From NCBI RefSeq assembly GCF_025370785.1, contig NZ_JAMXFA010000001.1, positions 107,902-171,901 of the forward strand: a stretch of DNA of 64,000 nucleotides, written 5' to 3'. Of the stretch, positions 58,898 to 61,417 are shown in pieces (positions within the stretch are counted from its first letter, which is position 1; the number at the start of each line of letters is the position of its first letter). This DNA is from Laspinema olomoucense D3b. GTDB lineage: Bacteria > Cyanobacteriota > Cyanobacteriia > Cyanobacteriales > Laspinemataceae. The translations under genes and the position numbers were made by a program. The notes below the pieces were generated by a model. That model searched no databases, was not told where the DNA came from, and saw nothing but the letters and a program-made list of their open reading frames with translations.

Positions 58898-61417
58898 ATG
58901 GCAGAGATCAATCCAGTAGCTTGGTTGCAGGAACGAACGGCATTAAATCGTTTATCGGAACCTGTATTAACAGCGATCGCCCAAGTCCTCCAGGAGCAAA
59001 TTTTACCCGCAAATCAGGCGATCGCCGAACCGGAGAAATTCCCCACCGGATTCTACATCCTCCGGGAAGGAGAGTTACAAACTTCCCTGAAAAATGCCCC
59101 CCCTTCCTCGGATGAATTGAGCCCCGGTTGCACGATTAACTTACGGGCATTACTCTTAGACCAACCTCCAGAACAGACGATTTCTACCGTCACCGAATCT
59201 AAATTCTGGTTTGTCCCAGCGGACCGAGTTCGGGAATTAGTCCGGCAATACCCAGAAATCACCCAAACCTTGACCCGACAACTCGCCCAAGAACTTGCCG
59301 AGGTGTCGAGTGCGCTGACTTATGAACAACAACGACAAGATGCTTTACGGCCTTATTTTGTCACCAAAGCAAAACGGGGAATTGTGGGCAGAAGTCGCTA
59401 TGCTCAACGTCTCAGACAGCAGATTAGAGAGGCGGGGTCGGATAGGCGATCGGTCTATATTTTCGGGGAACCGGGATTAGAAAAAGATAATATTGCTGCC
59501 CTGATTCACTATGGTTCCCCCCACCGTCAGCAACCGATCGTCAAAATCAACTGTGGGATTCTCCAAAAAGGGGGGGCAGAACTCTTTGGACGGGCGGGAG
59601 GGAAACCAGGACTGATCGAATGGTTGGGAGAAGGGACCCTGATTCTCAACAACATTGATGAACTGCCCGAGGAACTGGTTGAGGCAGTCGCCACCCTATG
59701 CAAAACCGCCACTTATAGACCCGTCACCCGAGAAGGGGATGATCCCGCAGCCCCTAAATCCACTCCTGCCAAAATTCTAGCCATCTCAGAAAAACATCTT
59801 CCGGCGATCGCCCCGCATCTGGACCAAACCCTCAAAGTTCCTCCCCTGCGAGTCCGAAAAGCCGACATTAGCGCTCAAGTCGAGTATTATATTAGCTTGT
59901 ACTGTCGCGCCAAAGCGCTGAGCAAACCCCAACTCACCCCAGAAGCTCTCCGTCGGCTACAATCTTATGATTTTCCCGGCAATATTCGGGAATTGCAAAA
60001 CTTAGTAGAACGGGCGATCGTCCAGTCAGATTGCGCCCGAGAATTAACGGAAGAAATTTTTTGGGCAGCCCAAGGGAAGAAAAAACGATTCCGCTTGAAT
60101 TTACTGAATGCTTATCCCCAATTGCGCCATTTTCTTCGCAGTCCTTGGTGGCCCGATCGCATTAACTATGGTTTTACCGTCGTTGCCTTCGCCCTAGTCG
60201 TTGCCATCTTATTTCTGGGTCCGCAAACTCGCGATCGCAACTTTGCCCTCAACTTCTTTTGGGCCTGGTGGTGGCCGTTAATTCTATTCGCCTTTCCCTT
60301 TGTCGGTCGCTTGTGGTGTGCCGTTTGTCCCTTTATGATTTATGGAGAAATTACCCAAAAAATCTCCGAAAAATTATTAAAACACAACCTCAAACCCTGG
60401 CCGCGACAGCAAGCCGAAAAATGGGGCGGCTGGTTTCTGTTCGGCTTATTTACCCTAATTTTCCTGTGGGAAGAACTCTGGGATTTACAGAATACGGCCT
60501 ATCTCTCCGCCTGGTTACTCCTCTTAATCACCGCCGGGGCGATGATTTGTTCCGCCATCTTTGAACGGCGGTTTTGGTGTCGCTACCTCTGTCCCATTGG
60601 CGGCATGAATGGACTGTTTGCCAAACTTTCCATGACCGAATTAAGAGCACAACAAGGAACCTGTTCCGCCGAATGCAGCACCTATCAATGTTATAAAGGC
60701 GGTCCGCAAAAAGGGGAAGGGATGGAAACCAATGGCTGTCCGCTCTATTCTCATCCCGCCCAGTTAGAAGATAACCGGGATTGTGTTTTATGCATGACCT
60801 GTTTAAAAGCCTGTCCCCATCGGTCCGTTGAATTCAATCTACGACCTCCGGGAATTGATTTGTGGACCACTCATCAGCCTCGTAGCTATGAAGTCGCCTT
60901 GTTGCTGTTACTTTTAGGGGGAATATTTTTGCATCGATTGCCCGAGATTAATACAGTCCTGGGATTAGGCATTGATTTAAGCCAATTTTGGCCGCATTTG
61001 GGATTGTCATTGGCCGCATTAGGGATTCCTGCCGCCTGGGTATTACTTGCCGGGGTGGCCATTGTTGGACTAAACCGCACCTTCAAATCTAAACCCTTTG
61101 TCCAATTAGCATACGGATATTTGCCCTTAGTTTTAGGGGGAAGTTTAGCTCATTATTTGCGCTTGGGATTAGGAGAAGCGGGACGCATTTTACCCGTCAC
61201 CTTTGCCACCTTTGGGTTGAGTGGGGAAGGGTTGCCCGTGTGGATTGCACATCCAGCAGTGATTACCTTTTTGCAAGGAACCACCTTAATTGCTGGAGTG
61301 GGGTTGAGCATTCTGTTAACGCAAAAAATTGGCCGAGAGTCCCTGCGATCGCTGCTTCCCCAACATTTAGCCACCCTCGGATTAGCTTTGGGGATGTGGG
61401 TTATTATCGTGAGGTAA
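58898..61417 (+). CDS. multidomain protein: cNMP-binding domain + degenerate sigma-54-activator-type AAA+ domain + NapH/MauN-like membrane polyferredoxin
   Basis: The CAP effector-like domain has FYILREGEL. The sigma-54-interaction-like core runs GRSRYAQRLRQQIREAGSDRRSVYIFGEPGLEKDNIAALIH ... FPGNIRELQNLVERAIV, with the Walker A degenerate (GEPGLEKD) and no GAFTGA. The C-terminal membrane part carries the Cys motifs CAVCP, CRYLCP, CSAECSTYQC and CVLCMTCLKACP. Confidence 0.7.
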   Translation: MAEINPVAWLQERTALNRLSEPVLTAIAQVLQEQILPANQAIAEPEKFPTGFYILREGELQTSLKNAPPSSDELSPGCTINLRALLLDQPPEQTISTVTESKFWFVPADRVRELVRQYPEITQTLTRQLAQELAEVSSALTYEQQRQDALRPYFVTKAKRGIVGRSRYAQRLRQQIREAGSDRRSVYIFGEPGLEKDNIAALIHYGSPHRQQPIVKINCGILQKGGAELFGRAGGKPGLIEWLGEGTLILNNIDELPEELVEAVATLCKTATYRPVTREGDDPAAPKSTPAKILAISEKHLPAIAPHLDQTLKVPPLRVRKADISAQVEYYISLYCRAKALSKPQLTPEALRRLQSYDFPGNIRELQNLVERAIVQSDCARELTEEIFWAAQGKKKRFRLNLLNAYPQLRHFLRSPWWPDRINYGFTVVAFALVVAILFLGPQTRDRNFALNFFWAWWWPLILFAFPFVGRLWCAVCPFMIYGEITQKISEKLLKHNLKPWPRQQAEKWGGWFLFGLFTLIFLWEELWDLQNTAYLSAWLLLLITAGAMICSAIFERRFWCRYLCPIGGMNGLFAKLSMTELRAQQGTCSAECSTYQCYKGGPQKGEGMETNGCPLYSHPAQLEDNRDCVLCMTCLKACPHRSVEFNLRPPGIDLWTTHQPRSYEVALLLLLLGGIFLHRLPEINTVLGLGIDLSQFWPHLGLSLAALGIPAAWVLLAGVAIVGLNRTFKSKPFVQLAYGYLPLVLGGSLAHYLRLGLGEAGRILPVTFATFGLSGEGLPVWIAHPAVITFLQGTTLIAGVGLSILLTQKIGRESLRSLLPQHLATLGLALGMWVIIVR

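What the first reader, a model, noticed from the sequence alone, without database searches (positions are those of the whole stretch)
58898..61417. Unusual fusion protein: cNMP-binding + crippled sigma-54-activator AAA+ domain + NapH-like membrane polyferredoxin
One 839-aa protein combines three modules.

(i) The N-terminus is a CAP/cNMP-binding effector domain.

(ii) A domain follows that aligns motif-by-motif with NtrC-type sigma-54 interaction domains. The conserved pieces are G-S-x-Q-L-x-I...V-I-x-GE-G-x-K-x-x-A-x-x-IH and the C-terminal FPGNIRELQNLVERAIV. The Walker A is degenerate (GEPGLEKD instead of GESGTGKE), and the GAFTGA sigma-54 contact loop is replaced by GRAGGKPG.

(iii) The C-terminal half is polytopic membrane with two CxxCP/Cx3CP motifs (CAVCPF, CRYLCPIGG) plus a Cx3Cx4C and a classic CxxCxxCxxxCP 4Fe-4S motif. 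This is the hallmark arrangement of NapH/MauN/CcoG-type quinol-oxidising polyferredoxins.

Cyanobacteria lack sigma-54, so the AAA+ module cannot act as a canonical bEBP. Inferring function from domain grammar alone, this looks like a redox- and cyclic-nucleotide-responsive membrane sensor or transducer. I cannot place the architecture in any family I know.
Basis: partly seen in the sequence, partly recalled or inferred. Interest (0 to 1): 0.78.

Follow-up and report, generated by a model that had tools for sequence, protein, structure and literature searches.

The report
FesM, a known cyanobacterial iron-sulfur membrane protein

Summary
The ORF at 58898..61417 (+, 839 aa) is intact. Pfam finds cNMP_binding, Sigma54_activat, AAA_lid_14 and Fer4_5 (x2) above threshold, and NCBIfam gives a sub-threshold NapH/MauN match.

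It is not an orphan architecture. It is 72% identical over 832 residues to GenBank AAW31857.1, "FesM" of Synechococcus sp. PCC 7002. Xu et al. (Plant Physiol 2005) described FesM as a membrane Fe-S protein required for PSI cyclic electron flow and photoheterotrophic growth.

Orthologs of about 840 aa occur in at least 575 species genomes, almost all cyanobacteria. By annotation these include slr1529 and Synpcc7942_1527. Some green algae also have homologs. A sister family at 26-34% identity, seen in Desulfobacterota and Proteobacteria metagenome bins, has the same layout.

In the FesM clade the AAA+ module is a conserved pseudo-ATPase. Walker A is GEPGLEKD, Walker B is LNN, GAFTGA is deleted, and the arginine fingers are gone. 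The cNMP pocket residues are also missing. All 12 membrane and ferredoxin cysteines are invariant.

There is no DNA-binding domain, and cyanobacteria have no sigma-54. The RefSeq name "sigma 54-interacting transcriptional regulator" is therefore misleading. The ftsZ neighbour is lineage-specific.

The family is already known. Its mechanism is still unsolved.

The parts
58898..61417 (+). fesM ortholog, complete ORF (839 aa)
   Evidence: ORF listed. It is 72% identical over 832 aa to FesM AAW31857.1 and 93% identical to a Laspinema sp. A4 protein.
59003..59251 (+). N-terminal CAP/CNB-fold domain (aa 36-118) with a degenerate ligand pocket
   Evidence: Pfam cNMP_binding, 3.2e-9. The phosphate-binding cassette reads INLRALLLDQPPEQTIST instead of FGE...R[ST]A. 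The Arg and Glu are not conserved in the clade.
59255..59356 (+). Long linker helix (aa 120-153) joining the CNB domain to the AAA+ domain
   Evidence: AlphaFold secondary structure shows helix H120-153. Conservation is 0.84.
59381..59827 (+). bEBP-type AAA+ alpha/beta subdomain (aa 162-310), a pseudo-ATPase
   Evidence: Pfam Sigma54_activat 162-277. The best PDB sequence matches are VpsR and PspF. Foldseek finds NtrC1, PspF and FleQ AAA+ domains with TM up to 0.81.
59462..59491 (+). Degenerate Walker A, FGEPGLEKDN (aa 189-198)
   Evidence: The Gly before the Lys is replaced by Glu. This exact string occurs in 111 of 121 clade members. The sister family keeps GExGTGK.
59579..59617 (+). Remnant of loop L1, with GAFTGA deleted (aa 228-240, ELFGRAGGKPGLI)
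   Evidence: The HMMER alignment to PspF shows an 8-residue gap where GAFTGAQK lies. The shortened loop is conserved in the clade.
59630..59659 (+). Degenerate Walker B, EGTLILNNID (aa 245-254)
   Evidence: LNN replaces LDE. Asn at the second position is nearly invariant across both clades.
59849..60031 (+). AAA+ lid subdomain (aa 318-378), including FPGNIRELQNLVERAIV
   Evidence: Pfam AAA_lid_14, 4.4e-15. Just upstream, the arginine-finger segment of PspF (FRADLLDRL) aligns to gaps and 'aphldq'.
60146..60628 (+). NapH-like four-helix membrane module (aa 417-577), with CAVCP (474-478; nt 60317-60331) and CRYLCP (561-566; nt 60578-60595) at the cytoplasmic helix ends
   Evidence: Fer4_5 x2. NapH/MauN TIGR02163 matches 467-647. 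Supported by hydropathy and AlphaFold helices. C474, C477, C561 and C565 are invariant in 121 clade members and in the 76-sequence superfamily alignment.
60635..60847 (+). Cytoplasmic 2x[4Fe-4S]-type ferredoxin domain (aa 580-650): C589, C593, C598, C614, C629, C632, C635, C639
   Evidence: All eight Cys and H619 are invariant. This is the most conserved segment of the protein, at 0.955. Weak Fer4 hits. pLDDT is low, as expected without the clusters.
60884..61411 (+). Five further transmembrane helices (aa 663-838, TM5-TM9), with clade-conserved His659/679/700/752/785/823
   Evidence: AlphaFold helices and hydropathy. His conservation is clade-specific. No Pfam family matches and no solved structural relative was found.

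Best explanation
The gene is the Laspinema-type ortholog of fesM. FesM is a nine-helix membrane iron-sulfur protein conserved throughout cyanobacteria. The PCC 7002 locus tag SYNPCC7002_A1475 is tied to the FesM sequence cluster through its accession. slr1529 and Synpcc7942_1527 are assigned by annotation, length and a published ortholog table.

The working core is the C-terminal half. It consists of a NapH-type four-helix module with a CxxCP and a Cx3CP motif at the cytoplasmic ends of TM2 and TM4, a cytoplasmic two-cluster ferredoxin domain, and five extra helices.

Inferred mechanism: the Fe-S chain carries electrons between a soluble cytoplasmic donor on the acceptor side of PSI (reduced ferredoxin or NADPH-derived) and the membrane plastoquinone pool, or a membrane partner. 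This would explain the published requirement of FesM for PSI cyclic electron flow and for photoheterotrophic growth.

The N-terminal CNB-fold domain and the bEBP-type AAA+ domain are evolutionary relics. In FesM the Walker A glycine, Walker B Asp-Glu, sensor I Asn, arginine fingers and GAFTGA loop are all lost, and so are the cNMP-contacting residues. Because their surfaces remain conserved, they most likely serve as a cytoplasmic scaffold for oligomerisation or partner docking, or as an allosteric scaffold. They do not act as an ATPase, a cAMP receptor or a transcription activator.

Shown here: identity, architecture, motif states, conservation and distribution. Taken from the literature: the phenotype. 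Inferred: the direction and partners of electron transfer, and the scaffold role.
For: Identity:
- The window protein is 72% identical over 832 aa to AAW31857.1, 'FesM [Picosynechococcus sp. PCC 7002]'.
- The same 90% cluster holds WP_012307089.1, which is SYNPCC7002_A1475.
- The phenotype comes from the title of Xu et al. 2005 and the statement citing it in PMC9003380.

Conservation:
- The gradient points to the Fe-S/membrane half as the functional core: ferredoxin domain 0.955, TM1-4 0.89, AAA+ 0.81-0.83, CNB 0.70.
- All 12 Cys are invariant in 121 clade members and in the 76-sequence superfamily alignment.
- The NapH/MauN profile matches residues 467-647.

Topology:
- Nine helices, with both Cys motifs and the ferredoxin domain on the N-terminal (cytoplasmic) side.

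Pseudo-ATPase:
- The fold is retained.

Not a transcription factor:
- No HTH domain.
- Sigma-54 is absent from cyanobacteria (PMC3162934).

Other:
- A slr1529 knock-out line grows photoautotrophically at the wild-type rate (0.0465 vs 0.0490 per hour, p = 0.74). This fits a conditional role (PMC5318462 supplement).
- The gene stands alone, with no conserved operon partner.
Against: - The 2005 paper could not be read here. The phenotype is known only from its title and one citing sentence.
- No biochemical evidence was seen for quinone or ferredoxin reactivity.
- The NapH match is far below the curated cutoff (53 vs 213 bits), so the quinol-site analogy is only an analogy.
- The strong conservation of the dead AAA+ and CNB modules (about 0.8 and 0.7) shows they matter. 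That fits a signalling role as well as a scaffold role.
- The cyclic-flow defect could be indirect.
- Segregation of the slr1529 mutant was not checked here.
Confidence: 0.65

Rival explanations
1. FesM is a redox sensor or signal transducer rather than an electron carrier. The Fe-S clusters report the redox state of the plastoquinone or ferredoxin pool. The CNB-like and pseudo-AAA+ domains relay this to cytoplasmic partners by conformational change. The cyclic-flow phenotype is then a downstream regulatory effect. This is essentially the first reader's proposal, without the cyclic-nucleotide input.
For: - The dead AAA+ and CNB modules are still strongly conserved (0.81-0.83 and 0.70). This suggests a retained interaction or allosteric role.
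- The closest solved relative by sequence is VpsR.
- Sister-family members add GAF domains, typical of signalling proteins.
- There is no operon partner that would mark a dedicated electron-transfer chain.
Against: - The most conserved part is the 12-Cys membrane/ferredoxin half, with three presumed clusters. That is more than a sensor usually needs, and it is the layout of the electron-transferring NapH/NosR/CcoG proteins.
- No output domain is present (no HTH, kinase or GGDEF).
- The cNMP pocket is degenerate.
Confidence: 0.22
2. FesM is a membrane reductase or assembly factor. It would resemble CcoG, a NapH-like cupric reductase (from my own knowledge), or NosR. It would reduce a metal or cofactor, or feed electrons across the membrane through the extra TM5-9 bundle with its conserved histidines. 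This would serve the biogenesis or maintenance of a photosynthetic complex. Cyclic flow would fail only secondarily.
For: - The protein has the NapH-like Cys layout.
- His659, His679 and His700 are conserved in the cyanobacterial and algal clade but not in the sister family. They lie at the ends of TM5 and TM6.
- TM5-9 has no known family or solved fold.
Against: - No metal-binding motif or chaperone neighbour was found.
- His752, His785 and His823 are not kept in the more divergent clade members.
- The resemblance to CcoG and NosR rests on memory and was not tested here.
Confidence: 0.1
3. It is what RefSeq calls it: a sigma-54-interacting (NtrC/NtrX-type) transcriptional regulator of nitrogen assimilation.
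For: - Product names in databases.
- The legacy Synechocystis name 'ntrX, nitrogen assimilation regulatory protein'.
- It is treated as the regulator hub 'NtrC' in a 2026 network-inference preprint.
- Sigma54_activat scores above the Pfam threshold.
Against: - No DNA-binding domain, and nine transmembrane helices.
- GAFTGA is deleted, and Walker A, Walker B and the arginine fingers are lost.
- Sigma-54 is absent from cyanobacteria.
- All NCBIfam bEBP equivalog scores are 5-10 times below their cutoffs.
Confidence: 0.02
4. The ORF is an artefact: two genes fused by a sequencing frameshift or an assembly error.
For: None found.
Against: The same continuous 828-881-aa architecture is seen in more than 120 independent proteins and at least 575 genomes, including the finished genomes of model strains.
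Confidence: 0.01

Closest known systems
FesM of Synechococcus/Picosynechococcus sp. PCC 7002 (AAW31857.1; SYNPCC7002_A1475); Xu, Liu, Zhao & Zhao, Plant Physiol 2005, 138:1586
   Same: It is a full-length ortholog: 72% identity over 832 aa, the same length, and the same motifs throughout. The membrane and ferredoxin half is nearly identical.
   Different: Only species-level divergence, mostly in the CNB-like domain and in the TM5-6 loop.
Bacterial enhancer-binding proteins (PspF, NtrC1, NorR, FleQ) and the atypical VpsR
   Same: The AAA+ fold and lid are shared. Foldseek TM is up to 0.81, and phmmer E-values are 3e-22 to 1e-13. The Sigma54_activat and AAA_lid_14 Pfam domains match. VpsR is the best sequence match among solved structures.
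   Different: - No HTH domain.
- Walker A G to E, Walker B DE to NN, sensor I N to E.
- Arginine-finger segment deleted and L1 loop shortened by 8 residues.
- Fused to a nine-helix membrane domain.
- The host phylum has no sigma-54.
NapH/MauN family membrane polyferredoxins (TIGR02163, PRK09477); by memory also NosR, NirI, CcoG/FixG and RdhC
   Same: Residues 467-647 align to nearly the whole NapH profile from TM2 onward. There are two Fer4_5 motifs (CxxCP and Cx3CP) after membrane helices, followed by an 8-Cys two-cluster ferredoxin domain.
   Different: - The score is 53 bits against a cutoff of 213.
- There are no NapG or NapC-type neighbours.
- About 400 residues of cytoplasmic CNB and AAA+ precede the module, and five extra helices follow it.
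- The first ferredoxin motif is Cx3Cx4C...CP rather than CxxCxxCxxxCP.
Sister family 'AAA-type ATPase domain/polyferredoxin' proteins of Desulfobacterota/Proteobacteria metagenome bins (for example P0170, P0184, P0194)
   Same: They share the cNMP_binding, Sigma54_activat, AAA_lid_14, Fer4_5 and multi-helix layout, at 26-34% identity over nearly the full length. All 12 Cys are kept, and Walker B has Asn at the second position.
   Different: - They keep a canonical Walker A (GExGTGK) and an L1 loop close to GAFTGA (GAFSFA, GAFPFA).
- Their Sigma54_activat match is full-length (up to 163 bits) and their cNMP_binding scores are stronger (58-83 bits).
- They lack the His residues of TM5-6.
- Some add GAF or AIM24 domains.

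Membership tests
FesM (cyanobacterial membrane Fe-S protein) | Full-length sequence orthology to the named protein AAW31857.1 | tested here: met
   BLASTP gives 72% identity over 832 of 839 aa with 2 gaps. The name and accessions come from the cluster listing.
FesM (cyanobacterial membrane Fe-S protein) | A polytopic membrane protein with Fe-S binding Cys motifs and an N-terminal cNMP-binding-type domain on the cytoplasmic side | tested here: met
   Nine predicted helices, 12 invariant Cys, and Pfam cNMP_binding. The sidedness is inferred from the helix count and the positive-inside pattern. It was not measured.
FesM (cyanobacterial membrane Fe-S protein) | Required for PSI cyclic electron flow and photoheterotrophic growth | not testable with these tools
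   This is a genetic phenotype reported for PCC 7002 only (citation in PMC9003380). The primary paper is not held.
Sigma-54 bacterial enhancer-binding proteins | AAA+ domain of the Sigma54_activat type, with lid | tested here: met
   Pfam gives 45.4 bits (cutoff 20.2) and AAA_lid_14 gives 55.7 bits. The model superposes on NtrC1 and PspF.
Sigma-54 bacterial enhancer-binding proteins | GAFTGA loop that contacts sigma-54 | tested here: not met
   The loop is replaced by GRAGGKPG, with an 8-residue deletion relative to PspF. The change is conserved across the clade.
Sigma-54 bacterial enhancer-binding proteins | Catalytic ATPase motifs: Walker A GxxxxGK, Walker B hhhhDE, sensor I Asn, arginine fingers | tested here: not met
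   Walker A is GEPGLEKD, Walker B is LILNN, sensor I is SE instead of TN, and the FRxDLxxRL segment is missing.
Sigma-54 bacterial enhancer-binding proteins | C-terminal HTH (HTH_8/Fis-type) DNA-binding domain, and sigma-54 present in the host | tested here: not met
   No HTH hit appears in Pfam or NCBIfam. All equivalog scores are far below cutoff. Sigma-54 is absent from the cyanobacteria surveyed in the literature.
NapH/MauN ferredoxin-type membrane proteins (TIGR02163) | Two CxxxCP-type motifs after membrane helices, plus a C-terminal two-cluster ferredoxin domain | tested here: met
   CAVCP and CRYLCP are matched as Fer4_5 x2. Eight further invariant Cys lie at 589-639.
NapH/MauN ferredoxin-type membrane proteins (TIGR02163) | Score above the curated family cutoff | tested here: not met
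   53.2 bits against 213.05 for TIGR02163, and 38.7 against 234 for PRK09477.
NapH/MauN ferredoxin-type membrane proteins (TIGR02163) | Genomic association with partner redox proteins (NapG/NapC, mau or nos genes) | tested here: not met
   No neighbour cluster is present in more than 22 of 80 loci, and those reflect Nostoc redundancy. The window neighbours are a HAD hydrolase and ftsZ.
CAP/CNB cyclic-nucleotide-binding domains | Domain profile match | tested here: met
   PF00027 gives 37.1 bits against a cutoff of 27.5, over residues 36-118.
CAP/CNB cyclic-nucleotide-binding domains | Phosphate-binding cassette residues: FGE, and Arg-Ser/Thr-Ala contacting the cyclic phosphate | tested here: not met
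   The window has INLRALLL...EQTIST. Arg and Glu are not conserved in the clade. Some sister-family members keep FGEM...PRSA. Actual ligand binding is not testable here.

The most novel reading that the evidence does not exclude
FesM could be the missing direct ferredoxin(or NADPH)-to-plastoquinone electron conduit of cyanobacterial cyclic electron flow, an 'FQR'-type activity. Electrons would pass from the cytoplasmic two-cluster ferredoxin domain through the CxxCP/Cx3CP-bound centre into a quinone site formed by the membrane helices. The dead bEBP-type AAA+ domain would assemble the protein into a ring-shaped oligomer, as live bEBPs do. Its retention in some green algae would make it an ancient, overlooked component of oxygenic photosynthesis.
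Probability: 0.12. Interest if true: 0.8.

Novelty: already known. Interest (0 to 1): 0.3.

Why it matters
The finding itself rediscovers a named protein, so it adds little as a discovery. Three side results still have practical value.

1. Misleading annotation. The family is widely labelled "sigma 54-interacting transcriptional regulator", "NtrC/NtrX" or "Nif-specific regulatory protein". A 2026 network-inference preprint already treats it as a nitrogen transcription-factor hub. The motif analysis here shows it cannot be one.

2. A still-unsolved mechanism. FesM has barely been followed up since 2005, while the routes of cyanobacterial cyclic electron flow remain debated. The list of invariant Cys, the clade-specific His residues and the dead ATPase motifs gives a concrete mutagenesis map.

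3. An evolutionary context. The family has a sister clade in sigma-54-containing bacteria with a near-intact bEBP module, and homologs in green algae. This frames how a transcription-activator ATPase was recruited onto, and then decayed on, a membrane polyferredoxin.

Tried and rejected
- Conserved neighbourhood. ORFs from 80 related loci were clustered. No partner is present in more than 22 of 80 loci, and those reflect Nostoc redundancy. The ftsZ adjacency is found only in 4 close relatives. The division link was dropped.
- Two sister-family loci also show no shared operon.
- The promoter and terminator scan around the gene found nothing above the shuffled expectation.
- Reading the primary FesM paper failed by PMC id, DOI and PubMed id.
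- Literature searches on domain-name combinations found nothing. Searches on locus tags found only expression and mutant tables.
- slr0593 ("cAMP binding membrane protein") was my first guess from memory for the Synechocystis ortholog. I abandoned it in favour of slr1529, which matches by RefSeq product name, length (835 aa) and the ortholog table of the 2026 preprint.
- "all1704" was an unverified guess used as a search term and should be ignored.
- The frameshift or two-gene artefact was rejected.
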